A stretch of 64,000 nt of DNA from Trypanosoma brucei (lineage: Eukaryota), in assembly GCA_000002445.1 (NCBI GenBank), contig CP000069.1, positions 416,001-480,000 on the forward strand, written 5' to 3'. Shown here piece by piece: positions 1,146 to 54,586 of the stretch (positions within the stretch are counted from its first letter, which is position 1; each line of letters opens with the position of its first letter). The translations under genes were made by a program, and so were the position numbers. The notes below the pieces were generated by a model. The model did no database searches. It was not told the origin of the DNA and worked only from the letters and a program-made list of their open reading frames with translations.

Positions 1146-2726
<1,581 letters not shown>

Positions 2727-2906
2727 CTATGCACATACCACACGCACATGCCCTCCAGGTGTATTACAGTTTCACTACACAGCCGCTCGCCGAAGAAGAT
2801 AGAATTGAGGGGGAGTAAAAAGGGAAGGAAATAAAAAAAAAAACCAAGCAATAATGAACGAGAAACACCAATCACAAGGTGAAGCGCAACCCAAGACTAC
2901 GCCACC

Positions 2907-4487
<1,581 letters not shown>

Positions 4488-4667
4488 CTATGCACATACC
4501 ACACGCACATGCCCTCCAGGTGTATTACAGTTCCACTACACAGCCGCTCGCCGAAGAAGATAGAATTGAGGGGGAGTAAAAAGGGAAGGAAATAAAAAAA
4601 AAAACCAAGCAATAATGAACGAGAAACACCAATCACAAGGTGAAGCGCAACCCAAGACTACGCCACC

Positions 4668-6248
<1,581 letters not shown>

Positions 6249-6428
6249 CTATGCACATACCACACGCACATGCCCTCCAGGTGTATTACAGTTCCACTAC
6301 ACAGCCGCTCGCCGAAGAAGATAGAATTGAGGGGGAGTAAAAAGGGAAGGAAATAAAAAAAAAAACCAAGCAATAATGAACGAGAAACACCAATCACAAG
6401 GTGAAGCGCAACCCAAGACTACGCCACC

Positions 6429-8009
<1,581 letters not shown>

Positions 8010-13987: not shown

Positions 13988-15214
13988 CTACGAATAAAAA
14001 TCATATTGTTCATCACCCGTCTTGCGAGTGACTGTACGATAGGCACTTTCAATGTCTTTTGGTAGGACAACATATCTGTTCTTCCGCACCGCCAACATAC
14101 CCGCCTCATGACAAATGGACTGAATATCTGCACCTGTAAGCCGTTCCGGTCGCGTGACAAATTCCTCCAAGTCAACCTCAGGTGAAAGGTTCATTCGAGA
14201 TGTACAAACCTGGAAGACAAGCCGTTTCTGACGGCGATCGGGGTAGGGGAATTCGATCTTGCGATCAAGACGTCCAGGCCGAAGGATTGCGGGGTCCAGC
14301 GTATCCCAGCGATTGGTCGCCATGATAACTTTCACGTTAGTTGTCTGATCAAAACCATCCATTTGGGCCAACAGCTCAATTAACACCCGTTGAACCTCAC
14401 GATCAGCACCGGTTTGCGCATCAAAACGTTTGGTTGCAATGCTGTCAACCTCGTCTATAAAAATAATTGCCGGGGCATTTTCTCGTGCAAGTCGAAACAC
14501 ATCACGCACCTTACGCGGACCCTCGCCAAGGTACTTCTGCACAAATTCCGAACCCACCACACTAATGAAGGCCGCATTCGTGTGATGTGCAACAGCTTTC
14601 ACAAGCATTGTTTTGCCGGTGCCGGGTGGGCCGTAGAGCAAAACGCCACGTGGAGGGTCGATTCCAATCTGGTCGTATAGTGAGGCATGTGTAAGAGGTA
14701 ACTCAACCGCTTCCCGAATTTCTTGTTTTTGCATGTCGAGCCCACCCACATCACTGTACGTCACGTTTGGCCTATCTTCTTTACGGAGAACGTGGACCGC
14801 CGAGTCTATTTCATTGGGAAGAATCTGGACGCATGAATTGCTGCCCTTATGCAACCCCACACTTGCGCCAGGTTTCAGTTTTTCCTTGTCCAAGGTGCTT
14901 AAAATGCGTACATAGTAGTTGCTGCTCGAACTACCACCTACAATACCACGACCCGCCTCTACTGCCTCCACAAAAGTGCCAAGTACCAACGGGACAGCTT
15001 GAATTCGTTTCACTTCCTGTTTGGCTGCGCTCTCCTCCTTTTGGAGATGGTGCGTTTCTGTTTTGCAGATCATCGTCTTGAGTTCAAGGTTTTGTATGCT
15101 TCGCACCAGCCGCTCATGTTCTTCATACAAACTCAACGTCGCCGCGGGGGTACCACCTGCAACTGCGGCATTTGTTGTTTGCGCTAAAAGTGAAGTCATC
15201 CACCCCTTCTTCAC
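13988..15214 (-). CDS. RPT3: 26S proteasome regulatory AAA-ATPase subunit Rpt3 (PSMC4 orthologue), 408 aa
   Basis: Walker A GPPGTGKT, Walker B IIFIDEVD and second region of homology. Near-collinear similarity to human PSMC4 as I recall it ([103 protein letters not shown]). Confidence 0.9.
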
Positions 15215-19315: not shown

Positions 19316-22300
19316 CTAATATGCAGTTTTAGCTGATCCACGCAAAAGATGAAACAAATCATTTACGCGGTTTGGGAATAAAGTATCGTCGCGTCCATCA
19401 CCACTTTCTTCACCGACGGCCTTCCGACAGCGTTCATACAAAACGATGTACGGAGTCTCATGCGGTCCGACGACACCGCTGGAACCTTTGAGGACAGCAT
19501 CAATATCCTTGGACTGTACCGACGATATGTGCGAGTCATTTGCTAACGCCCACAAGCCATCTTCGTCATTCTCCCTCTCCCCCTTTACCTCCGGGCATTC
19601 CTTCCCAGTTGAATCAGCGCCTGAAGGATGAAAAAGAAGTGAAAAATAGTGTCCGGAGTACACACCGGGCCCATTATGCAGCAAAACACCCCTCAGTTTG
19701 TATTGCACTTGGATGTCAACAAGCTCATCGCATTCTCCACGCTCCTCACGATGTGCGTTAGGATCAGGTGAGGTAATCATATTACCCATATTTCCATCAT
19801 CTTGACTACTATGGAGCGGTGAGCGACTTGATTTCCTTTCCACTCGAACTGGAACATGCAAACACTTCTCGATAGCCACTGCGTCCATCACTTTTTCGTG
19901 TGACTCCGAAGCGTGCGAGTACTGAAAGCGGTTCAGCTGCAAAATGAGGTAGTGTGGAATCCCTTCAACGGCGCTCTCTTCCACAACCCCTTGGGACTGT
20001 TCATCTTCCTCATTCTCAAAATGTGCACCTAACCCTGCCGAATGATTAACCGTTCCGTGCATGGCGGTGAACATCTCCGCCTGCTCATTGCTGCAACAAG
20101 ATTCACAGAATATCATATTTTCACCTTGAAGGACCTCCCTTGACTCGCGGTAGTTCAGAACCCTGCCGAGTAATTGCTGCAAGGACCGCTGAAAAGGCAC
20201 CCCTGCATTATTCTCATTCTCCTCAGCGTCGCACGACGCACAATCAGATTTACTTTCTACCCCTCTCATGGAAGCGTTATCCGTGTGATATGTGGTTATG
20301 GCCACACGACCATCGGCAGATAGTGCTATTTCTGTACTTTTGGAAATCTCCCGCTCATCGTTGGCAGTTGGCCCCTGAGCAGCGACACACGCAGATGATG
20401 TTACATGTGCTGCACCGTCACCATCACGGCGCAGTGGAACAGTAACAATCCAAAATGGGGCCCGCCGTGAGCGTGCCGCTCCGCATCCACTGCACTTAAT
20501 GGTGGACACGAGGTTCCCACCAAACCACCTTGAAACAAGCATGGGCCGCTGCTTCTCGTCTTTGCGTTTCCCAAACTTGGTGCCCGAATCAGAGCAGTCT
20601 TCATTGCTCTCATCTTGTCCCTCTATGTTGTCATTTTTTTCTGTAAACACGAAGTTGTCGATACGATCCATCAATGCCATAGCAAATTCGGAGGTATCGT
20701 GCTGGCGACCGTCGTTAAACGGCGGCGGCAAACATTGCTGCAGACGGTATGTATCAATGGCACAGCTATTATACCCGTTGCGTAGATGCCAGTGCATTTG
20801 GCTTAGAATAAGTGCTACCATAACAACTAGTTCGTCGGCACCACGAGAAAGCTTGTGGAAAACCGCCGTCGTCACTTTAGTTGAATCAACATTATTTTTT
20901 TTATTACTGTTGATGTCAGCGTTGCCGCCAGCGTCTTCGCCAACTTGCCCATCAGCAGCGCCTCGCTCGCTGAGTACCTGGAGGACACCGCGCACCAATT
21001 CCAAGCTAAAATATTTCGCGGTGAAAAGAAGCTGAAGAAAGCTATTTACGAAGCATGTATTTCCAGCATTCCTAAGGCCCAAGAAAAGTTGACAAACCGC
21101 AGAGACCGCCTCTCCCGATTCCTTACCACGCCGAGCAGCAGCCAAGTTGCCTAATCCGTCTGCCATTTCGAAGTTGTCGGCATTTCTTCTGGGGCCATCG
21201 AGTGACGGGGCTAATTTGACACCAGGTGCCGCATACAGTGGTTTCATTACCTCTCCGCTCGGGCAGCAGCTGGAAAGTTGTTTTCGACCCGCACCGTCGG
21301 CCCCACCTGATGAGTTTTTGTAATAATCTAGGAAAAGTCGGGGGATATGTCCCCGAAAGAGATTCGCCACTGTACTCAACTCATCTCTCGTCATATTTAC
21401 CGGCGTGCAGCACCGCTGCAGAGCTGGGAACACACTAAAGCATGCAAGGGAGAAGATGAGATGTGGCGTGGTGGATTTGGTAAACCTCCACACTTCTTCC
21501 GAAATCATTTCGAGGGCAATGCGTCCCACCATACTAATATCACCGACCACTGGCCTCGTCACCTCGGCCAAGTTCCCCAATGATTCTGTTATCAAGTGTA
21601 CGAAGGAGGGCACATCATTGTGCATTGAAGTCTTTAAGAGGGAACAAAACGCACTCACTGTGTACAAGCCGCTGCCATCCGCGGCTGGGCCGCCAACTGC
21701 ACACCCAGGAATGCTATCGGCAGGAATCGTATCATTAAGTGCAAAAATATGGAGCATCTTCAGTATTGAGTACGCCCTTTGGAGTAGCAAATGGATTACT
21801 ATTTGCTCGGATCGCCCATTATTGTTGTGACGGCAGTCAAATGGATCCTTGTGGCATCCGAAAAATTGCGCAGCAACCGGAACGCCATTCCGTTGCGCAA
21901 GCGGTGACTTTTTGAAATCGCTTATTTTCCTTGCGGCAGTCGAAAGGATCTCTCCCGCAACTCTGTGCAAACACCAAAGTGCTACGTCTAGTGGTGGAAG
22001 GGATGACTCAATACTGTCTGTCTCATCGTCGTGTGATAAGGGAGAAGTTGCTGTCTCTACTCTTCTTCTTCGTCTCCCTCGCCCACTGAAGGTTTCCTGC
22101 CGTGGCTTCGCGAAGTTGACGCCGAACGCGAGAAACCCAGAAACAGCTCCAGCAAAAAGCGATGGTTCAGCTGACCCAGCAAGGCTACTAAGAACGATCC
22201 CGGCAATGGTCCCATCGGCAGTCGCAAAATTGTTCTCCCCTGACCCCTCACTACTAACCTCATCCCTGCTCATTCCGGTTTCCCGTGAGCGGGTGAAGAC

Positions 22301-22639
22301 ATCCATCCGGGAATTATGGTAGGCCGTCTGCAGGGCGCTGCGCACCAAAGCTAACCCTAGCGGTGAAACATTTTCCACGTAATTACGACTCCTTTCGACG
22401 CGCATTCCAATATCTGATATGCGGCCAACAATAAAGTTTATGACATCGCGTTGACATGGTAGTGTAACTTTCTGAGATTGCCTAAAAAGGGCTGGTGAAT
22501 TAAGTTGCAGCAAAATATCAATAAGTGATGGTTGCGCACGCCGTTCCGCCTCTCCTTCCTCTATGGAGTATTGCTGCGAAAGAAAGTCACTGCCCGCACT
22601 AACCATCACACGGTCGGGTATTCCCTCCGGCTTCCGCAA
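19316..22639 (-). CDS. Ubiquitin carboxyl-terminal hydrolase (USP/UBP, peptidase C19 family), 1107 aa
   Basis: Cys-box GNTCFVNSFLQLLF and His-box YKLRGVLLHNGPGVYSGHYFSLLF, with a large insertion between the two boxes. Confidence 0.8.
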   Translation of the reverse strand: MRKPEGIPDRVMVSAGSDFLSQQYSIEEGEAERRAQPSLIDILLQLNSPALFRQSQKVTLPCQRDVINFIVGRISDIGMRVERSRNYVENVSPLGLALVRSALQTAYHNSRMDVFTRSRETGMSRDEVSSEGSGENNFATADGTIAGIVLSSLAGSAEPSLFAGAVSGFLAFGVNFAKPRQETFSGRGRRRRRVETATSPLSHDDETDSIESSLPPLDVALWCLHRVAGEILSTAARKISDFKKSPLAQRNGVPVAAQFFGCHKDPFDCRHNNNGRSEQIVIHLLLQRAYSILKMLHIFALNDTIPADSIPGCAVGGPAADGSGLYTVSAFCSLLKTSMHNDVPSFVHLITESLGNLAEVTRPVVGDISMVGRIALEMISEEVWRFTKSTTPHLIFSLACFSVFPALQRCCTPVNMTRDELSTVANLFRGHIPRLFLDYYKNSSGGADGAGRKQLSSCCPSGEVMKPLYAAPGVKLAPSLDGPRRNADNFEMADGLGNLAAARRGKESGEAVSAVCQLFLGLRNAGNTCFVNSFLQLLFTAKYFSLELVRGVLQVLSERGAADGQVGEDAGGNADINSNKKNNVDSTKVTTAVFHKLSRGADELVVMVALILSQMHWHLRNGYNSCAIDTYRLQQCLPPPFNDGRQHDTSEFAMALMDRIDNFVFTEKNDNIEGQDESNEDCSDSGTKFGKRKDEKQRPMLVSRWFGGNLVSTIKCSGCGAARSRRAPFWIVTVPLRRDGDGAAHVTSSACVAAQGPTANDEREISKSTEIALSADGRVAITTYHTDNASMRGVESKSDCASCDAEENENNAGVPFQRSLQQLLGRVLNYRESREVLQGENMIFCESCCSNEQAEMFTAMHGTVNHSAGLGAHFENEEDEQSQGVVEESAVEGIPHYLILQLNRFQYSHASESHEKVMDAVAIEKCLHVPVRVERKSSRSPLHSSQDDGNMGNMITSPDPNAHREERGECDELVDIQVQYKLRGVLLHNGPGVYSGHYFSLLFHPSGADSTGKECPEVKGERENDEDGLWALANDSHISSVQSKDIDAVLKGSSGVVGPHETPYIVLYERCRKAVGEESGDGRDDTLFPNRVNDLFHLLRGSAKTAY

Positions 22640-27903: not shown

Positions 27904-29937
27904 TTACTTTGGGTTTTGTTTGCTCAGCAGCACAACCCGGCGTCGTGACACACAACGCTCACTAACTCCCAGGGGATAATAAAGTACACGGCACCACATG
28001 GGGGTTCTCTCAGCATCTAGTAACCAGTGTGTTTGACCCTCCCCAATTTCATATTTGAAGACGTCACGCGGAAAATCAGCACTTTCCTGGTCGTCTTCGT
28101 TAGGGCTGACGGTGTCGAATACAGCGTCACAATCCTTTGCAACATCTTGCACAAATTGCTCGGGTATTGCCTTATTAAGATCATTCACCCCTTCAGCACC
28201 ACATTGACATGTCGCGTTGCCATCACCTGACGCAAAGGGAAGCGGCATGGCACAGTCCACACCCAGACTCCGTATAAAGGCAATCCGAGCATGAAGTGGA
28301 TCGAGAAAAAATGATGAGGGAAAGCGGTACCACTCACGGCCTACGCAAAGTGTATAAAGAGTTTTCTCGCCCTTCTGTGGGGCATCACTTGCCTTTCGCC
28401 TGGCCAGCTCTCGTACCGTAGCGTAATTGTCATAGAGCTTCTGCTGTGGTCCCACGTAGAATTTGTGGATGGCCGCTGTGCGTGATAGGGAAACCGTTAC
28501 AATAAAAGACAACACAATGCAGCCCGTAGTGAGAAAGAAGGTGTGGCGCATGCGTTGGAGCCAACAGCCAGGGAGTTGTTTGCGGCGGCCACTGGGTTCA
28601 GCTCTCGTACTCGCGCTATGTAGCACCGCTCCGTTCTCGCTGTTCACAGATCTCGCGGTTCCTGCAAACGTAAGGTGTGTAAATGACAACGCAGCGGCCA
28701 GTGCGAGAAATGGAAAAGCGGGGGACATAAACCGCTCTTCTTTGTGTGACACCTTCAGCCAAAAGGCAAACCACAAAAAGAAGGGTGAAATGTAAAGCAA
28801 TCCTCGTCCACGCGAAACCGTAGGTTCGACTGGCCTAGTATCTGGCTTGGTGGTCGGCGACTTCTGTGTTTTCCGCCCCTTTTCCCCAGTCGTCTCTCCA
28901 GCATCAATCTCATCAGAATTCGTTGTCGCATTACTCACCCATGATGTCGTCGAGGGCTTAAGCAATACGACAAAGGGAGATAGAAGGCAAGCAACAAACA
29001 TCAGATGCGCGTTCAAGAGTAAATTCTTAAAAAAGAAGTACCACGGTTCGACACCGTAGAGCTCGGGACCACGTCCCTCACCTCCCATAAACATGTTGTA
29101 CCGCACGAGATTCAAAGCGCTCCACGTGATTTTGCCATTGCCACCATGGCAACCATTGTAATATAGTGTGTCAAAATACACGGAAAGTGGCACAACAACT
29201 GCGAGTGAAAGTAATAGCGAAACGGTAGAGGCGAGGGGAAACCTCACGAGCATATCCAATGCCATCGGCACCGCCAGCAAGGCGGCGAAAGGCCAACCAA
29301 TCACTGTGGATGAGACAACGGAGAATACGGTGCCGAAAATAGCGAAATTTATGGCCTGGAACTGCGAGCCACCCATCACCGACCTTTTCATTCTTGATGG
29401 AACCTTCCCTTCGACACGGGTGATACATTTCACAAGACTGCCGTCCGTTCGTAGCCAGCAACCCACCGCAACAAAGTAATTTATCATGGCGTAACTTGTG
29501 GGCAGGATACTCACTGCTGCATGTGTGATGGGGTAATTAAACAAAAGAAGTGTGAGTGCTGCCGCTGCAACTCGTTTACCAAACACCTTCCTAACGCCAC
29601 CAACGAAAAAAATCTCGCTTAGCGCCGTGACAACACCGCTAAATGCTCGAAGGAGAAAGTACACATCTATGTTACGCAGCCCTGAGGGGTTGTATATGCT
29701 AACAGCCTTGCTAATTATCGTTATAGGACCGACGTAGAGCCATGAAAAAAACCACGACCGCAGCGCAAAGCGAGGACAGTTCTCCCACGTTTGAAGGCCA
29801 CTGCCGTACATCAAGAAGTGCATCGGCTCCAAGAAATTGAATGTTTCATCGCAATCAGCAATAGGAAGAATGTACGAGGCAAAACAATGACTAAGCACTA
29901 AAAGCACCGCCCCGAGAAAGAGCCACATGCCAAGCAC
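27904..29937 (-). CDS. ALG9: ALG9-type dolichyl-P-Man alpha-1,2-mannosyltransferase (GT22 family), 677 aa, polytopic membrane protein
   Basis: N-terminal ILPIADCDETFNFLEPMHFLMYGSGLQTWE...ALRSW motif and C-terminal CVGREWYRFPSSFFL motif. Both match the ALG9 signatures as I recall them (human ALG9: IADCDETFNYWEPTHYL and CVGKEWYRFPSSFLL). Confidence 0.8.
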   Translation of the reverse strand: MLGMWLFLGAVLLVLSHCFASYILPIADCDETFNFLEPMHFLMYGSGLQTWENCPRFALRSWFFSWLYVGPITIISKAVSIYNPSGLRNIDVYFLLRAFSGVVTALSEIFFVGGVRKVFGKRVAAAALTLLLFNYPITHAAVSILPTSYAMINYFVAVGCWLRTDGSLVKCITRVEGKVPSRMKRSVMGGSQFQAINFAIFGTVFSVVSSTVIGWPFAALLAVPMALDMLVRFPLASTVSLLLSLAVVVPLSVYFDTLYYNGCHGGNGKITWSALNLVRYNMFMGGEGRGPELYGVEPWYFFFKNLLLNAHLMFVACLLSPFVVLLKPSTTSWVSNATTNSDEIDAGETTGEKGRKTQKSPTTKPDTRPVEPTVSRGRGLLYISPFFLWFAFWLKVSHKEERFMSPAFPFLALAAALSFTHLTFAGTARSVNSENGAVLHSASTRAEPSGRRKQLPGCWLQRMRHTFFLTTGCIVLSFIVTVSLSRTAAIHKFYVGPQQKLYDNYATVRELARRKASDAPQKGEKTLYTLCVGREWYRFPSSFFLDPLHARIAFIRSLGVDCAMPLPFASGDGNATCQCGAEGVNDLNKAIPEQFVQDVAKDCDAVFDTVSPNEDDQESADFPRDVFKYEIGEGQTHWLLDAERTPMWCRVLYYPLGVSERCVSRRRVVLLSKQNPK

Positions 29938-34521: not shown

Positions 34522-35826
34522 TCAATTCTCCAATCCCGCTGCGTTGTTGCCAAACCCTTCCGCCCTCAGCAGACCAAACATGGCATTCAGGGAAGCAGCG
34601 GTGATTGCCGCTTGGGCAGGGAGTGTAACCATGCAGCCACGAAAAGGCACCTCTTCCATTGTTTTGTAGTTGTATGCCCCCGTGCTGAGAAGTGAGAACA
34701 GTGAAAATGAGAGTTGTAACGCGGCCGCAGAAACCAATGAAGCAACGGCGACGGTAGGAGCCCGGTGCAGTACGGTAGGTTCCTGGAGTGACTTGGATAA
34801 AAGTTGTGTGCTTTGCTGTGCCGAAGGTCCGTCCCCATCATCCTGGGTATCCACGCCCGTGTCTTGCTCTGATATTCTCTCTTCATCTCCCACTTCTTGG
34901 GTCTTTGGCCCTTTATCGCTAGAAGTAGTGAGTAGATTCGTCCCTTCCTCCTCCTCTCGCTGGGGTTGGTTAAGTTGGTAACCCCACGGTTCCTGCTCAG
35001 AGACAACGGCTGGAGCAGTGCCGCTACTCGTAAGCCCCTCTCCACCAGCGGCAGCAGGACTTTCTCCTTCGATAACGGCATTTCCCGCCGGTTGTGGGTT
35101 GTCCACAACATCGGGGTTATAATTTGTCACCAGTACATCTGCAGCCCTATTTGGGTAGTCACCACTATAATCATCAGTGCCCAAAAGGGTGTCAGAAAGG
35201 GGATCGAACAACGTCCTCCTCTTATCCCGCCGCACCAAAAGGGCAACCACTCCTTGTCCCGTCATCACAGCCCATGCAATGTGACAAAGCAATAGGAGAA
35301 ATGCCTGCAAAACAGCGTGCTGTAAAAGCGGCATTTGAGGGCAGATGTTGAAGTCGTACAGCGTTGTACCATCGGTGTAAAATTCAAGACGCCGTGTAGC
35401 ATCCAACAGCGTACCAGCACCGCGTAGGGATGAAACCATCCCCATGCCACAACCTACTGCAGCTGAAGTTAGGGCAAACCGCGAGGAACTCTTAGCGATT
35501 AATTGGCCATAGCCGCGGGCAAATCGTTCCAATCGGTAAAGAAATACGAAAAGCATGACCCGAAATAGTATGCTGGTACAAACTTGGATCAGAACGACAA
35601 CATACGAGATTGCATTCGTGTGGTCTTCCGTTCGCACGTTCTGCACGATCGTGTAAAGTATTCCAGTAAGTAAAAGTGAAACGTAAGCAGAAACGGCGCC
35701 AAAGAGGGTAATAATGAGGAGCTGAGGATATGCCCTTAGGGAAACTGCTGTTAATAAACACAGTGGCGAATAAAGAAGTAAAAAGCAGCCAACAATGCCA
35801 ATAAAGTGCATGGTTTGCAGAGTCAA
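34522..35826 (-). CDS. Polytopic membrane protein with possible APH-1 (gamma-secretase subunit) homology in its N-terminal ~230 aa. It also carries a long acidic C-terminal tail (434 aa total)
   Basis: Seven predicted hydrophobic helices. Small-residue G-x-G-x-G helix motif (AAVGCGMGMVSS). Paired His helices (LLQHAVLQAF...LLCHIAWAV). Block similarity to human APH1A as I remember it (VLLQEVFRFAYYKLL vs SILFRVMLFVFLYRL). Not verified. Confidence 0.4.
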   Translation of the reverse strand: MTLQTMHFIGIVGCFLLLYSPLCLLTAVSLRAYPQLLIITLFGAVSAYVSLLLTGILYTIVQNVRTEDHTNAISYVVVLIQVCTSILFRVMLFVFLYRLERFARGYGQLIAKSSSRFALTSAAVGCGMGMVSSLRGAGTLLDATRRLEFYTDGTTLYDFNICPQMPLLQHAVLQAFLLLLCHIAWAVMTGQGVVALLVRRDKRRTLFDPLSDTLLGTDDYSGDYPNRAADVLVTNYNPDVVDNPQPAGNAVIEGESPAAAGGEGLTSSGTAPAVVSEQEPWGYQLNQPQREEEEGTNLLTTSSDKGPKTQEVGDEERISEQDTGVDTQDDGDGPSAQQSTQLLSKSLQEPTVLHRAPTVAVASLVSAAALQLSFSLFSLLSTGAYNYKTMEEVPFRGCMVTLPAQAAITAASLNAMFGLLRAEGFGNNAAGLEN

Positions 35827-36527: not shown

Positions 36528-39500
36528 TCATGCACCCTCCTCCTCCGACGACGAATCATCGAAACTAGTAAACTGCTTTACTGCAGGTGGCTTCTGTTTT
36601 TGAGCTTCTTTAGATTTTGTGGAGGAGTCACTGCTGGCAGTCGATACACCATGCCGCGGTACAGTGAAACTGATATCCTCACCAGGATCTTCAATCGGTT
36701 GAAATGTTCCTCTCCTTCCGATGTGGCTTCCAACTATGCTCCCCAGTCCCTCATCGGTGCCAGTTTCAGGGGGCACATTAGATGCCCTCCCTGTAGTGAC
36801 AACACTCAAATCGCTCTTTAGGCCATCACCTTCTGCTTTTTTACCCTCGGCCGTTTTCACCTCCTTCGTTTCCTCTTCCTTCTCATCAACCTTTGGAGCT
36901 TCCGTCCGTGTCGGCTCTGACATCGGTGCAGTGGGATGATCCTCTGAATCGTCGTCCCAGTCGTCGTACTGGCTGACCGTTACCTTTGTCTTCGGCGCTT
37001 CAGAGTCTCCTTTTTCCTCTTCCTCCCTCGTTGAATCCGCCTTGGAAACTGTGAGAATCGGCCCCATCACGGCTGTGTCCTTCGATGACGATGGTGGCGT
37101 TAGAGTTTTTTCCACAGAGGGTTTCATTCGCGTAATGGAATCGCTACTGCTATTGCTTTCACTAGGTTTGAGTGAGACAGGCAACGCAGTGGCGTCAACG
37201 TTCGCCCTGACCAGCTCATCGCCCCTTCGCTCTTGGGTTCGGTGTTGCTTCTGCTGCGGCTGGCGTGCCTCAGCCGAGGAGGCACTCGAAGACGACTCCC
37301 GTGGTGCAAACATAATGGGACCCCGTTTTTCAATAGGAACGGACATCTCCAATGTGTTAACTGTTGAATCTGAAGACGAACCCTCAACCTTCCTTGCTAC
37401 TGCTGATTGGGTTGGGCGGTCAATAATTGACTTGGTATTCGATGCAGACGGTGGTTTCTTGTCGTCAATACTGCCCTGAACTGTAGAACCAGTTTGAGCC
37501 AAGTTTCCCTCTTTGGCTGTTGATTCAACTTTTGTTGGTAGAGCCGGACTCAAGAGCCTTTTTCCTTGGGAGATCAGGCTGCTATCTGAGGACTGAGATA
37601 GTCGTGGGGGCTTTTGAGGCTCGGGTGAATCTGCAAGCTGCGATGGATCAGACTCCACCCTCCGCATTGAAGTGCCCGCCAACACGTTCGGAGCTAAACC
37701 AGCGACCAGCGACTCTCCTGCGGTGCTCCTCTTTATTACCGGTGTTGACGCTACGTTTCCTTGTCCTTCACTGGAAGAGGTCATACGGTGCGAGTCAAAA
37801 AGCGCTTTTTCAACACGCGGAACTTGAGAAGGCCACCCATCTCCCTTCTCAGTTGCTCTCACCTCCTTCGTGCACACCGACTGCGAAAGTGTTGTGGTAA
37901 AATGTTGTGTCTCCTTGAGCTCATCGTGCACCTCCCTTAGGGTCTCCCTCATTTCCCCTAGTAAATTTTGCTGGCGTCGGTGTTCGTCTTCCAGGCGTTT
38001 GATCCTCAAGCTACAGTCCTCCTGAGACCCTGCCCACTGTTTGTGCTGCGTAACATCAGCCCCAATGGTGTGAAGTTCTGTTTCGAGTGTTCTCACAGCC
38101 CTGCGAATTGCATTCAGATCCTGTTGCAGCACACAGTCCTTGAAACGCCGCTCAGATGCCTCGTCAATTTCCGTCAGGGTACCATTTAGGGCATCAATCT
38201 TCGCTCTACACGCCTGAAGGTCGCGGGCGAACTGTTGCTGTTGCTGTTGGACCGTCTCTCCAACTTGGGTTACCAGCGAGCTTGTGGACTGCCCTTTGTC
38301 TTCCAGCCGATCTAACCGGGAGCTTGCCTCATTTGCACGCGCTTCCAATTTATCTGTACGCTCCGCCATATTCGTCTCCACGCGCCGCATATGTTGGTTA
38401 AACTTTACTTCCAGCCGGCCTGCCATTTGTTCTGCTGCTATCTCGGCTTCATTTGTTGCAATTGCCGTCGCTTCCAGCTCACGGCGCGATTCCCTCTGTT
38501 CTTGCCACAAACGTTGATGTTGCTGAAGCTGCGCGGACAGCGTTTGGGTGTCCTTTGCATTGTCGTCAGCGGTGCTGCGCAGATTGGTGAGATCCGCGAC
38601 CAGCCGGGTTGACTGCACTTCAAGCTGTGCCACACGACGCTCCATGCGCTCCACTTCGCCTCGAGATGTCGAACTGCTCGTTTCGCACCTCAGTGCTGCG
38701 TCGTTCGCGGCTTCCACCCTCGTGGACAACGCTTGCGAGCTGACGTTCATGTCACGGCGAAGTTGCTCAAGCCGCTCATTAAGGGAGCGCACAGTACCCT
38801 CAATGTTCAGTGCGTGTTGCTGGTTTTGCATTATGGCATTCTCCCCGCGACTGGCCTCAGCAGCCAATGTCTCACGGGCTTCCTCCAACACAACGATCCG
38901 GTGTTGCAGCTGCGGTATGCGATTATCTGTGATGCTTTCCAGTGACGTTCGTAGGTGCTGCTGCTGTTTCTCATAAACACTTACTCTATCCATCAGGGCA
39001 TCGAGTTGCCGCTTTTCGTTTTGTTGTTCCTGGACGTCGCGTTCGTAAACGTGCCGTAAGGCGTCAACGCCACTCTCTGCTCTCTGCGCGGTGCGGCGTA
39101 CACCCTCCAAGTCCGCCCTCAGTTTTTCGGCCGTCGAAACGGCAGCCAGATGAGATTCCAGTTGAGCCACCCGCGCATCACGATCCTCGATGGCGTCCTC
39201 TGCACGTTGCGCAGTTGCCATCGCGCGCTGCGAAACAACTACCGCCCTCTCCGCCACATCGCGCACCACTGCAATGGTCGCATCAGCGCGGCTTGCGGCC
39301 TCTTGTGCGCCGTCAGCCTTGCGCTCTGCCCTGTCTATACGAGACAACATTACCGCCGCACTCGCCTCAGCAGCTGAAACACGTTCCTGAAGTGTTGTCG
39401 TTTGAAGCCGTAGCTCTGCTCGGCACGTTGTTGTGCAGTCATGCACTTTGGCGCTCAAATCAGTCATGCCCTCAGTATGCTGTGCCATCTGTTTAACTAA

Positions 39501-40349
39501 TGTGTCTATCGGCGCCTGTAGCTCTCGACGCGTTGTGGCAAGGTGAGACTTCCATGTTTTGTCAACAAGTTCCTGCACGTGCGTGCCAAACGCTTCCACA
39601 TCAGACTTTAACTGCTGCTTCAGCTGCTGTCGTTCCCGTTGCTCCTCCGCTCGCATATCGATGTACCGCATAAGTTCCGCATCAAGCCGCTGGGCAATGG
39701 CGCTATTCTCACGTTCTTGGTGTTGTACACACTCCACACGAAGCAAGGCGCACTCAGACACCGCTGACTCCAGTCGTTCGCGCATCGCATCTACCTGCTC
39801 TCGCAGTTGTTCCTGCATGTCAAATTGGGTGCGGTCTCGCACTTTACTGTCACGAAGCAAATCCTCCACACGATGCTGTAGCAAAGATCGTGCTGTTTCC
39901 TCATCTTTCCGCTGCTGTTGAATGGCGACAGAGAGCTCATCTATCGCCCGACGTGATTGATGTTCAGATGTGCGCACCTCAACTAGCACCTCCTCCTTCC
40001 AGCGGCGACCCAGAGCTGTCAGTGTAGAAGAGCGGGAATCGCGCTCAGCGGCTAATTCACTGCGCAGACCGGCTACCTCACTCATCACAACACGCAGTTG
40101 CCGCTGGAGTTCCGCGATATACGCTGCTGAATCACCGCACTTTTCCCCATCATTGTCTGTGCGCCATGCCGCTTCAAAAGGAAAGTTCGAATTCCCCCTC
40201 ATGTCTCCCGTCGCACTGCTGCTAGTCCTGAATTTCAGGTCCCGATCCGCCCATTCGCATGAACCTGCCGTCGACCTTCGATAATAAAGGGCATCTTCTG
40301 TTGCCCGTAGTAGTTTAGCCGCTTCGCGCCCGAAATCAGTCATATGCAC
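36528..40349 (-). CDS. Large coiled-coil protein (1273 aa) with a Ser/Thr/Glu-rich, acidic low-complexity C-terminal third
   Basis: About 800 aa of heptad-like E/Q/R/L-rich sequence, followed by a disordered region rich in SSS/EEE/DD. Confidence 0.7.
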   Translation of the reverse strand: MHMTDFGREAAKLLRATEDALYYRRSTAGSCEWADRDLKFRTSSSATGDMRGNSNFPFEAAWRTDNDGEKCGDSAAYIAELQRQLRVVMSEVAGLRSELAAERDSRSSTLTALGRRWKEEVLVEVRTSEHQSRRAIDELSVAIQQQRKDEETARSLLQHRVEDLLRDSKVRDRTQFDMQEQLREQVDAMRERLESAVSECALLRVECVQHQERENSAIAQRLDAELMRYIDMRAEEQRERQQLKQQLKSDVEAFGTHVQELVDKTWKSHLATTRRELQAPIDTLVKQMAQHTEGMTDLSAKVHDCTTTCRAELRLQTTTLQERVSAAEASAAVMLSRIDRAERKADGAQEAASRADATIAVVRDVAERAVVVSQRAMATAQRAEDAIEDRDARVAQLESHLAAVSTAEKLRADLEGVRRTAQRAESGVDALRHVYERDVQEQQNEKRQLDALMDRVSVYEKQQQHLRTSLESITDNRIPQLQHRIVVLEEARETLAAEASRGENAIMQNQQHALNIEGTVRSLNERLEQLRRDMNVSSQALSTRVEAANDAALRCETSSSTSRGEVERMERRVAQLEVQSTRLVADLTNLRSTADDNAKDTQTLSAQLQQHQRLWQEQRESRRELEATAIATNEAEIAAEQMAGRLEVKFNQHMRRVETNMAERTDKLEARANEASSRLDRLEDKGQSTSSLVTQVGETVQQQQQQFARDLQACRAKIDALNGTLTEIDEASERRFKDCVLQQDLNAIRRAVRTLETELHTIGADVTQHKQWAGSQEDCSLRIKRLEDEHRRQQNLLGEMRETLREVHDELKETQHFTTTLSQSVCTKEVRATEKGDGWPSQVPRVEKALFDSHRMTSSSEGQGNVASTPVIKRSTAGESLVAGLAPNVLAGTSMRRVESDPSQLADSPEPQKPPRLSQSSDSSLISQGKRLLSPALPTKVESTAKEGNLAQTGSTVQGSIDDKKPPSASNTKSIIDRPTQSAVARKVEGSSSDSTVNTLEMSVPIEKRGPIMFAPRESSSSASSAEARQPQQKQHRTQERRGDELVRANVDATALPVSLKPSESNSSSDSITRMKPSVEKTLTPPSSSKDTAVMGPILTVSKADSTREEEEKGDSEAPKTKVTVSQYDDWDDDSEDHPTAPMSEPTRTEAPKVDEKEEETKEVKTAEGKKAEGDGLKSDLSVVTTGRASNVPPETGTDEGLGSIVGSHIGRRGTFQPIEDPGEDISFTVPRHGVSTASSDSSTKSKEAQKQKPPAVKQFTSFDDSSSEEEGA

Positions 40350-53737: not shown

Positions 53738-54586
53738 CTACTGAGAAGTCATTAGGTTCTGGCATACCTTTGCAGAGCTACTGTAGGGAGGGTTTTGCAC
53801 AGCCAACTCAGCATATTTGGGGTCCTTTTCCATGCAATACGGAGTCATCGTCCACGGCACAGTTACATCTTCCGGTTCGCCTTGATGAAGAGCAATAGTC
53901 CTGATTAACCCACCGCTGGAACCGTCTCGACTGTACGCGTGCGCGACGGCGCGCTGACAGAAACGGATGCATTCTTCTTTCGTCATCCCCGGTTTGTAAT
54001 TGGCGTCGAAGAATGAATACAGGAAAACAGAACCACTTCCCCCCAGAGCATAGTCCAGCTTCACGCACGCACCACCGGTAGGAATGCTATAAACAGATCC
54101 CCCGTTCAAAGGATCATAACCAGCCACAATAATACCAGCGGTTATATTCCACTTGTTCATATAGCACAGCTTTTTGAATATATTGGCTGCTGTTGCAACA
54201 TTCACCGGCTGCGAAATATCTGTCTCATAGCTCTCTAGATAATTTGCTGTCTGCTCGGCGAGTGCCTGAGTGTCGGCGGCAGACCCACTCCGGCAGCAGT
54301 ATATCCTTTTGGCCAACTTCGTCAGCTTGTTGCTCGCGCGATTTACCACATAAGCTCCCGTGGAAGTTCGCGAATCAGCGGCCAGAACGACTCCATCCTT
54401 ATAAGAAACAGCCATGATGGTTGTTCCGAGTGAAACCGCCTCACTCAGTTGCGGGTCGAGGACTGCAGCATCTGGTTGGAAATATTCCCTTGCAGTTTGG
54501 GCTGGTCCATTTGCTGTCGGTTCATGCGCCAGCGTCAGCGGGTACGAGGGTTCGTGCAAGAGTGTACCGGGGGGGCGTCTCAACAT
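53738..54586 (-). CDS. 20S proteasome beta-1 subunit (PSMB6/Pre3 type), 282 aa including propeptide
   Basis: Processing site G|TTIMAVSYKDGVVLAADSRTSTGAYVVNRASNKL closely matches beta-1 (human PSMB6 [34 protein letters not shown]). Conserved Asp17, Lys33 and Ser/Gly contexts. Confidence 0.85.
   Translation of the reverse strand: MLRRPPGTLLHEPSYPLTLAHEPTANGPAQTAREYFQPDAAVLDPQLSEAVSLGTTIMAVSYKDGVVLAADSRTSTGAYVVNRASNKLTKLAKRIYCCRSGSAADTQALAEQTANYLESYETDISQPVNVATAANIFKKLCYMNKWNITAGIIVAGYDPLNGGSVYSIPTGGACVKLDYALGGSGSVFLYSFFDANYKPGMTKEECIRFCQRAVAHAYSRDGSSGGLIRTIALHQGEPEDVTVPWTMTPYCMEKDPKYAELAVQNPPYSSSAKVCQNLMTSQ

What the first reader, a model, noticed from the sequence alone, without database searches (positions are those of the whole stretch)
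34522..35826. Candidate APH-1 (gamma-secretase subunit)-like membrane protein with a long acidic tail
The N-terminal ~230 aa are seven hydrophobic helices. One carries a G-x-G-x-G small-residue packing motif. There is a pair of His-bearing helices (LLQHAVL... / LLCHIAW...), and I can align blocks to human APH1A from memory. If genuine, it implies that at least part of an intramembrane-protease scaffold is present in trypanosomes. The additional ~200-aa acidic C-terminal tail, carrying DTQDDGD and EEEEG runs, has no counterpart in animal APH-1.
Basis: inference. Interest (0 to 1): 0.5.

Follow-up and report, generated by a model that had tools for sequence, protein, structure and literature searches.

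The report
Trypanosome APH-1, already annotated
This Trypanosoma brucei gene does encode a divergent homologue of APH-1, the scaffold subunit of the gamma-secretase membrane protease, but public databases already name it so, and its acidic "tail" is really a long disordered loop inserted between the fifth and sixth membrane helices.

Summary
The ORF is real. It lies on the minus strand (CDS 34522..35811, 429 aa from the ATG) and is identical to T. brucei TREU927 XP_845239.1 / UniProt Q585D0. UniProt names that entry "Aph-1 protein", and T. equiperdum and T. cruzi orthologues carry the same name.

The APH-1 assignment holds:
- Pfam Aph-1 scores 33.2 bits (cut-off 25.6), and no other family matches.
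- A trypanosomatid profile matches a canonical APH-1 profile at 99.3% probability (E 1e-20).

- Only five helices lie in the first ~200 residues.
- Both cited histidines sit in one helix, TM5.
- The acidic stretch (about residues 196-345, net charge -21) is a poorly conserved, disordered insertion in the cytosolic TM5-TM6 loop. Conserved TM6 and TM7 follow it.

G120 and G124 match human G122 and G126. H177 matches human H171. Human H197 is Q366 here.

Published work reports a presenilin-type peptidase and a nicastrin homologue in T. brucei. PEN-2 could not be checked. Verdict: a correct call, already annotated, and of modest interest.

The parts
34522..35811 (-). Complete CDS of the T. brucei APH-1 homologue (429 aa plus stop; ATG at 35811, TGA at 34522-34524). 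The in-frame TTG at 35826 is only the mechanical start of the ORF listing.
   Evidence: ORF list and sequence. Exact identity to XP_845239.1 / Q585D0 of T. brucei TREU927.
35206..35808 (-). N-terminal membrane block, TM1-TM5 (helices at aa 2-27, 30-59, 65-99, 113-141, 162-202). It matches Pfam Aph-1 profile positions 5-172.
   Evidence: Pfam, AlphaFold pLDDT >90, hhalign 99.3% against canonical APH-1.
35440..35454 (-). G120-C-G122-M-G124 in TM4. G120 and G124 align with human APH-1A G122 and G126 (the GxxxG assembly motif). The family-wide form of the motif is G-x-G-F-G/A.
   Evidence: E-INS-i alignment of 72 relatives plus human: G at these three columns in 71, 68 and 47 of 73 sequences.
35281..35283 (-). 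Codon of H177 in TM5, aligned with human His171. It is Gln in the T. cruzi, T. rangeli and T. melophagium orthologues.
34777..35205 (-). Acidic, poorly conserved, predicted-disordered insertion in the cytosolic TM5-TM6 loop (aa ~203-345). The human interval of 13 residues corresponds to 176 here. It contains the EEEEG and DTQDDGD runs.
   Evidence: Composition. pLDDT about 45-55. 20% identity among Trypanosoma orthologues against 55% in the TM blocks, and acidic in all seven. Loop length 13-352 across the family.
34555..34758 (-). C-terminal membrane block: TM6 (aa 352-374), a lumenal hairpin, and TM7 (aa 393-419).
34714..34716 (-). Codon of Q366 in TM6, aligned with human His197. It is His in the T. 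cruzi-clade orthologues and in 50 of 73 family members.
35341..35343 (-). Codon of C157 (CPQMP motif, lumenal TM4-TM5 loop). It is one of a nearly invariant cysteine pair and is absent from human APH-1.
   Evidence: Cys/Cys in 63 of 67 sequences that have residues at both columns. Lumenal position inferred from APH-1 topology and the positive-inside count.
34633..34635 (-). Codon of C393 (RGC motif, lumenal TM6-TM7 loop), the partner of C157 in the conserved cysteine pair.

Best explanation
The gene encodes the Trypanosoma brucei orthologue of APH-1, the seven-helix scaffold subunit of the gamma-secretase intramembrane aspartyl protease.

Shown here:
- It belongs to the APH-1 sequence family and has the APH-1 fold.
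- Its helices run TM1-TM5, then a ~150-residue acidic disordered insertion, then TM6-TM7.
- It keeps R84 (human R87), the TM4 glycines G120 and G124 (human G122 and G126), and a polar TM5/TM6 pair H177/Q366 (human H171/H197).

Inferred from the human complex:
- The helical funnel binds the nicastrin transmembrane helix and the presenilin C-terminus, and so stabilises presenilin for assembly with PEN-2.
- The N-terminus is lumenal and the C-terminus cytosolic. The acidic insertion therefore projects into the cytosol, away from the nicastrin ectodomain and the subunit interfaces.
- In the cytosol the insertion could act as a regulatory, trafficking or phosphorylation platform. This last point is speculative.
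- The near-invariant C157/C393 pair in two lumenal loops probably forms a disulfide that animal APH-1 has lost.
For: Sequence family:
- Pfam Aph-1 at 33.2 bits, above the 25.6 cut-off, E 4.4e-8, with no other family above threshold. 6 of 7 Trypanosoma orthologues hit it.
- The exhaustive profile search found 72 relatives. 36 are Pfam Aph-1 down to E 3.9e-58, and there is no competing family.
- hhalign, trypanosomatid profile against canonical APH-1 profile: 99.3%, E 9.7e-21 for TM1-5; 95.9%, E 6.3e-9 for TM6-7.

Fold:
- AlphaFold model with pLDDT 79.3, pTM 0.74 and a membrane core above 90.
- The top three Foldseek PDB hits are APH-1B and APH-1A.

Residues and topology:
- Four of the seven functionally tested human residues listed in PMC8745412 are identical here and one (H197 to Q366) is a polar substitution.
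- The TM5/TM6 polar pair is H/Q in the T. brucei, T. congolense and T. vivax orthologues and Q/H in the T. cruzi-clade orthologues. Among 65 sequences with residues at both columns, none has Q/Q.
- The positive-inside distribution fits APH-1 topology.

Partners and existing annotation:
- T. brucei has a MEROPS A22A presenilin-type peptidase (PMC3837538, Table 2) and a nicastrin homologue (PMC8400621).
- UniProt, and GenBank records of T. equiperdum and T. cruzi, already use the name Aph-1.
Against: - Direct pairwise similarity to human APH-1A and APH-1B is weak (phmmer E 0.015 and 0.46). The assignment rests on profiles and the fold.
- Human Q83, E84 and H197, reported as important for assembly and activity, are S80, I81 and Q366 here.
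- No experiment shows that this protein binds presenilin or nicastrin in any trypanosome. No paper on trypanosome APH-1 was found.
- PEN-2 could not be searched for in the T. brucei genome with the tools available.
- The AlphaFold alignment contained canonical APH-1 sequences, and AlphaFold was trained after 5A63 was released (August 2015). The fold match is therefore not fully independent of the sequence evidence.
Confidence: 0.8

Rival explanations
1. It is an APH-1-fold protein that has been repurposed. It descends from APH-1 but no longer works, or no longer works only, as a gamma-secretase scaffold. The large acidic cytosolic loop would then carry a trypanosome-specific function.
For: - Three of seven functionally tested human residues are changed: Q83 to S, E84 to I, H197 to Q.
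- A ~150-aa insertion is present in all Trypanosoma orthologues.
- The family is diverging fast in trypanosomatids: the Leishmania-group orthologues no longer hit Pfam Aph-1 at all.
- No known gamma-secretase substrates such as Notch or APP exist in these organisms (general knowledge).
Against: - The membrane core is conserved at 55% identity among trypanosomes, with the GxGxG motif, R84 and the polar pair retained.
- The partner subunits presenilin and nicastrin are retained in the same genomes (PMC3837538, PMC8400621). This is most simply explained by a working complex.
- The TM5-TM6 loop varies from 13 to 352 residues across the family, so it looks tolerant of insertions.
Confidence: 0.13
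2. It is the trypanosome counterpart of TMEM147. TMEM147 is the APH-1-like seven-helix subunit of the Nicalin-TMEM147-NOMO (BOS) complex of the ER multipass translocon, not a gamma-secretase subunit.
For: - TMEM147 and APH-1 are recognised structural homologues (PMC7505659).
Against: - Pfam reports Aph-1 and no other family above threshold even at E up to 10.
- The profile search pulls in canonical APH-1 proteins only.
[quoted passage not shown] Here TM3 is long, at aa 65-99.
Confidence: 0.04
3. It is an unrelated seven-helix membrane protein, such as a transporter or receptor, and its resemblance to APH-1 is due to hydrophobic composition.
For: Weak Pfam hits to DUF6040 (E 0.49) and Mem_trans (E 0.76). 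Pairwise E-values to human APH-1 are marginal.
Against: - Both of those Pfam hits are far below their cut-offs.
- All profile, profile-profile and fold comparisons single out APH-1.
Confidence: 0.02

Closest known systems
Human gamma-secretase subunits APH-1A and APH-1B (PDB 5A63 chain C; 8OQY and 8OQZ chain C)
   Same: - Pfam Aph-1 membership.
- Conserved P29, the TM3 Arg (R84 = R87), the TM4 GxxxG glycines (G120 and G124 = G122 and G126), and the TM5 His (H177 = H171).
- The same inferred topology: N-terminus lumenal, C-terminus cytosolic.
   Different: - Only ~15-18% identity.
- The TM5-TM6 cytosolic loop is 176 residues where the same human interval has 13, and is acidic and disordered.
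- Human H197 is Gln, and Q83/E84 are Ser/Ile.
- A Cys pair in the lumenal loops (C157, C393) that human APH-1 lacks.
- No long cytosolic C-terminal tail.
Non-animal APH-1 proteins recovered here (e.g. the euglenid Entosiphon sulcatum P0055, Pfam Aph-1 E 2e-28; the fungus Calcarisporiella thermophila P0080)
   Same: They share the G-x-G-F-G motif, the 'C-P-x-x-P' motif before TM5, the 'G-C ... S-L-P-x-Q' motif at TM7, the Cys pair, and a polar TM5 residue paired with His or Gln in TM6.
   Different: These proteins are 243-284 aa, with TM5-TM6 intervals of 15 and 38 residues against 176 in the trypanosome protein.
TMEM147 (Nicalin-TMEM147-NOMO / BOS complex of the ER multipass translocon; PDB 6W6L chain 4)
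   Different: - A clearly poorer structural match than APH-1.
- No sequence-profile match.
- Its TM3 cytosolic end is shorter than in APH-1 (PMC7505659), whereas the trypanosome TM3 is long.

Membership tests
APH-1 (Pfam PF06105, gamma-secretase subunit) | Sequence-profile match above the curated family threshold | tested here: met
   33.2 bits against a gathering cut-off of 25.6, E 4.4e-8. 6 of 7 Trypanosoma orthologues match. hhalign 99.3% against a canonical APH-1 alignment.
APH-1 (Pfam PF06105, gamma-secretase subunit) | Seven transmembrane helices in the APH-1 arrangement | tested here: met
   [not shown]
APH-1 (Pfam PF06105, gamma-secretase subunit) | GxxxG motif in TM4 (human G122, G126), required for complex assembly | tested here: met
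   G120 and G124 align with G122 and G126. Human G130 is S128 here.
APH-1 (Pfam PF06105, gamma-secretase subunit) | Conserved polar residues in TM5 and TM6 (human His171 and His197) | tested here: inconclusive
   H177 = His171, but His197 is Gln366. A polar pair is kept, and the H/Q order is swapped in the T. cruzi-clade orthologues. Whether Gln substitutes functionally is untested.
APH-1 (Pfam PF06105, gamma-secretase subunit) | TM3 polar cluster (human Gln83, Glu84, Arg87) | tested here: inconclusive
   R84 = Arg87 is conserved. Gln83 and Glu84 are Ser80 and Ile81 in T. brucei. T. cruzi keeps the Glu.
APH-1 (Pfam PF06105, gamma-secretase subunit) | Physical association with presenilin, nicastrin and PEN-2, and a requirement for presenilin stability and activity | not testable with these tools
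   Literature only. T. brucei has an A22A presenilin-type peptidase (PMC3837538) and a nicastrin homologue (PMC8400621). No interaction data were found. PEN-2 could not be searched for because no tool holds the T. brucei genome.
TMEM147 (APH-1-like subunit of the BOS complex) | Best sequence and fold match is to TMEM147 rather than to APH-1 | tested here: not met
   [not shown]

The most novel reading that the evidence does not exclude
Trypanosomatids retain a complete but strongly remodelled gamma-secretase. Its APH-1 scaffold has acquired a 125-155-residue acidic, disordered cytosolic loop between TM5 and TM6. It has also exchanged one of the two 'essential' histidines for glutamine, reciprocally in different trypanosome lineages, and keeps an ancestral lumenal disulfide that animals lost. 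The Leishmania-group orthologues, currently labelled 'hypothetical' and invisible to Pfam, would extend this scaffold to all trypanosomatids. That would overturn the published absence of APH1 from Euglenozoa (PMC2770060) and support an APH-1/nicastrin/presenilin core in the last eukaryotic common ancestor.
Probability: 0.55. Interest if true: 0.4.

Novelty: already known. Interest (0 to 1): 0.2.

Why it matters
The family call confirms an existing automated annotation and is not a discovery. It has some value for the evolution of intramembrane proteolysis. A 2009 survey, whose kinetoplastid sample was Leishmania major, did not list Euglenozoa among the groups with APH1 and nicastrin (PMC2770060). 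This gene, its pan-trypanosomatid orthologues and an euglenid homologue show that the scaffold is present there. Organisms without Notch or APP therefore keep the complex for some other purpose. The T. cruzi papers suggest the flagellar pocket, endocytic trafficking or autophagy. The corrected anatomy gives concrete, testable handles for anyone studying the parasite complex as a drug target: the cytosolic loop insertion, the H/Q swap and the conserved cysteine pair.

Tried and rejected
- + strand reading of the given coordinates: full of stop codons, so the gene is on the minus strand.
- Direct phmmer or profile searches of the PDB sequences: only marginal E-values to APH-1 (0.015 to 5), not decisive alone.
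- hhalign of the 7-sequence alignment against the single human sequence: only 22% probability. The comparison needed profiles on both sides.
- First AlphaFold run with 7 orthologues: pLDDT 47, too poor to rely on, although APH-1B was already the top Foldseek hit. It was superseded by the 72-sequence run.
- Word-indexed homologue searches with alignments A1 and A3: these returned only Trypanosoma sequences plus one unnamed protein (P0066) and added nothing on Leishmania. The exhaustive representative search plus cluster look-ups was what revealed the wider family.
- Literature searches for a paper on trypanosome APH-1, or for a Tb927 identifier linked to Aph-1: none found.
- PEN-2, presenilin and nicastrin could not be searched for in the T. 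brucei genome, because no available collection holds eukaryotic genomes. Neighbouring genes in the window are unrelated.
- TMEM147 identity and an unrelated 7-TM family were considered and rejected.

Full report
**What is at the coordinates.** The interval 34522..35826 holds a 434-codon ORF on the minus strand. The + strand reading is broken by many stops. The mechanical ORF starts at a TTG. The first ATG is at 35811 and gives a 429-aa protein beginning MHFIGIVG, as in all orthologues. This protein is identical, end to end, to XP_845239.1 / AAZ11680.1 / UniProt Q585D0 of Trypanosoma brucei brucei TREU927, on a 1,618,915-bp contig. From my own knowledge that size fits chromosome 6. GenBank calls it 'hypothetical protein, conserved'. 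UniProt calls it 'Aph-1 protein'. The T. b. equiperdum, T. equiperdum and some T. cruzi records say 'Aph-1 protein' or 'putative Aph-1 protein'. All ORFs of 200 aa or more that carry a Pfam domain lie on the minus strand, as expected for a trypanosome polycistronic unit.

**Is it APH-1? Sequence evidence.**
- Pfam Aph-1 (PF06105) is the only family above threshold: E 4.4e-8, 33.2 bits against a gathering cut-off of 25.6. Residues 11-193 of the 434-aa ORF (6-188 from the ATG) match profile positions 5-172 of 231.
- Six of seven Trypanosoma orthologues hit the same family.
- An exhaustive HMMER search of 1.84 billion cluster representatives with a four-species profile found 72 proteins at E ≤ 1e-3. 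Of these, 36 are Pfam Aph-1, with a best E of 3.9e-58. The only other family seen was a single Spt20_SEP hit.
- A 19-sequence trypanosomatid profile was compared with a 9-sequence canonical APH-1 profile. That profile includes human APH-1A, whose recalled sequence I verified as identical to 5A63 chain C. The match is 99.3% probability, E 9.7e-21, over TM1-TM5.
- The C-terminal 84 residues, compared separately, match human and canonical TM6-TM7 at 95.9%, E 6.3e-9.

**Is it APH-1? Structural evidence.**
- With only 7 orthologues AlphaFold gave a poor model (pLDDT 47). Even so, APH-1B was the top PDB hit.
- With the 72-sequence alignment the model reached pLDDT 79.3 and pTM 0.74, and the membrane core was above 90.
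- Foldseek ranks APH-1B, APH-1B and APH-1A first (E 1.8e-4 to 1.5e-3). TMEM147 chains come at E 0.31 or worse.
- TMEM147 is a recognised APH-1 structural homologue in the ER multipass translocon (PMC7505659). It is the only serious alternative family, and it is clearly the poorer match.
- Caveat: the model was built from an alignment containing canonical APH-1 proteins, so the fold result is corroboration and not independent proof.

**Corrected anatomy.** Hydropathy and both models agree on the following layout:
- TM1 at 2-27, TM2 at 30-59, TM3 at 65-99, TM4 at 113-141 and TM5 at 162-202.
- A low-confidence, essentially unstructured stretch to about residue 346.
- TM6 at 352-374, a short hairpin, and TM7 at 393-419.

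The 'acidic C-terminal tail' is an insertion in the TM5-TM6 loop. In an E-INS-i alignment, the interval that holds 13 residues in human APH-1A holds 176 in T. brucei. It ranges from 13 to 352 across the family. The loop starts with RRDKRR. The positive-inside count (5 K/R in loop 3-4) fits the established APH-1 topology of lumenal N-terminus and cytosolic C-terminus. The insertion should therefore be cytosolic. This is an inference.

The insertion is present in all seven Trypanosoma orthologues, at 125-155 aa. It is acidic in all of them (net -9 to -21) but only 20% identical on average, against 55% for each membrane block. So composition is conserved and sequence is not.

**Motifs.**
It corresponds to the APH-1 TM4 GxxxG motif: G120 and G124 align with human G122 and G126. 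The family-wide form is G-x-G-F-G/A.
H177 aligns with human His171. H165 aligns with a non-conserved human position.
- Human His197 (TM6) aligns with Gln366, beyond the insertion.
- The T. brucei, T. congolense and T. vivax orthologues have His(TM5)/Gln(TM6). The T. cruzi, T. cruzi marinkellei, T. rangeli and T. melophagium orthologues have Gln/His. Among 65 family members with residues at both columns, Q/H (22), H/H (10), H/Q (7), D/H (7) and N/H (6) dominate, and Q/Q never occurs. This fits two interacting polar side chains, as in the human protein.
- PMC8745412 lists seven human residues as important for complex formation and activity: Q83, E84, R87, G122, G126, H171 and H197. In T. brucei, four are identical (R84, G120, G124, H177), one is a polar substitute (Q366) and two are changed (S80, I81).

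**Partners and prior knowledge.**
- A T. cruzi presenilin-like protease (PMC7698364) and a T. cruzi nicastrin-like protein (PMC8400621) have been characterised. The nicastrin paper also aligns a T. brucei homologue.
- MEROPS lists an A22A (presenilin-type) and an A22B peptidase for T. brucei (PMC3837538, Table 2).
- I found no paper on trypanosome APH-1.
- A 2009 survey whose kinetoplastid sample was Leishmania major listed APH1 and nicastrin only in Holozoa, Amoebozoa, Plantae and Heterokonta (PMC2770060).
- PEN-2 could not be checked, because none of the searchable collections holds the T. brucei genome.

**Mechanism.** The most likely function, at about 0.8, is the canonical one. The seven-helix funnel would bind the nicastrin TM helix and the presenilin C-terminus and stabilise presenilin for assembly with PEN-2. 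That the protein has the family's sequence signature and fold is shown. That it assembles with trypanosome presenilin and nicastrin is inferred. A regulatory or trafficking role for the acidic cytosolic loop is speculation. Rivals are a repurposed APH-1-fold protein (about 0.13), a TMEM147-type translocon subunit (about 0.04) and an unrelated 7-TM protein (about 0.02).

**Verdict.** However, the gene is already named Aph-1 in public databases, and the supporting anatomical description was partly wrong. Novelty: already known. Interest: low to modest. The secondary observations below are the only new material, and none was tested experimentally: the loop insertion, the H/Q reciprocity, the conserved Cys pair, and the unrecognised Leishmania-group orthologues.

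Noticed in passing
P0035, P0041, P0043, P0047, P0020 (orthologues of window 34522-35811): Full-length relatives exist in Leishmania (L. braziliensis XP_001563067.1, L. naiffi, L. guyanensis, L. panamensis), Leptomonas seymouri, Novymonas esmeraldas, Lotmaria passim and Phytomonas sp. EM1. The named Leishmaniinae examples score E about 1e-17 to 1e-22 against the Trypanosoma profile, and the Phytomonas one 4.3e-58. All are labelled 'hypothetical' or 'integral membrane protein', and none gives any Pfam Aph-1 hit even at E ≤ 1. This probably explains why a 2009 survey using L. major did not list APH1 in Euglenozoa (PMC2770060).
   Followed up: partly
window 35341-35343 (C157) and 34633-34635 (C393), minus strand: Two cysteines, in the 'CPQxP' motif before TM5 and the 'RGC' motif before TM7, are both Cys in 63 of 67 family members with residues at both columns. 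That includes short canonical non-animal APH-1 proteins, but human APH-1A lacks both. Both lie in loops predicted to be lumenal, which suggests a disulfide lost in animals.
   Followed up: partly
window 35281-35283 (H177) and 34714-34716 (Q366), minus strand: There is a reciprocal His/Gln exchange at the positions equivalent to human His171 and His197. The T. brucei, T. congolense and T. vivax orthologues have H/Q. The T. cruzi, T. rangeli and T. melophagium orthologues have Q/H. Q/Q never occurs among 65 relatives with residues at both columns.
   Followed up: partly
window 1146-8003, minus strand: Four head-to-tail copies (period 1761 bp) of a 524-codon ORF encode a cathepsin-L-like cysteine peptidase (Peptidase_C1 E 8e-74, I29 propeptide, DUF3586 C-terminal extension). 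From my own knowledge this looks like the known T. brucei chromosome 6 cysteine peptidase (rhodesain/brucipain) array. The array may continue beyond the window start.
   Followed up: partly
window 36528-40349, minus strand: The immediately upstream neighbour is a 1273-aa ORF with no Pfam domain. It is rich in Glu, Arg, Gln and Ala, which looks like a long coiled coil, and has a Ser-rich acidic C-terminal third. It was not examined further.
   Followed up: no
P0021 (eukprot, 1424 aa): One relative of the family is 1424 aa, with the APH-1-like N-block at residues 1-206. It may be a gene-model fusion or a true multidomain protein. It gave no Pfam hit at E ≤ 1.
   Followed up: no
window 27904-29937, 19316-22639, 13988-15214, 53738-54586, minus strand: Ordinary housekeeping neighbours: an Alg9-like mannosyltransferase, a UCH-type ubiquitin hydrolase, a proteasomal AAA ATPase and a proteasome subunit. 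None is related to gamma-secretase, so gene order gives no functional support.
   Followed up: yes
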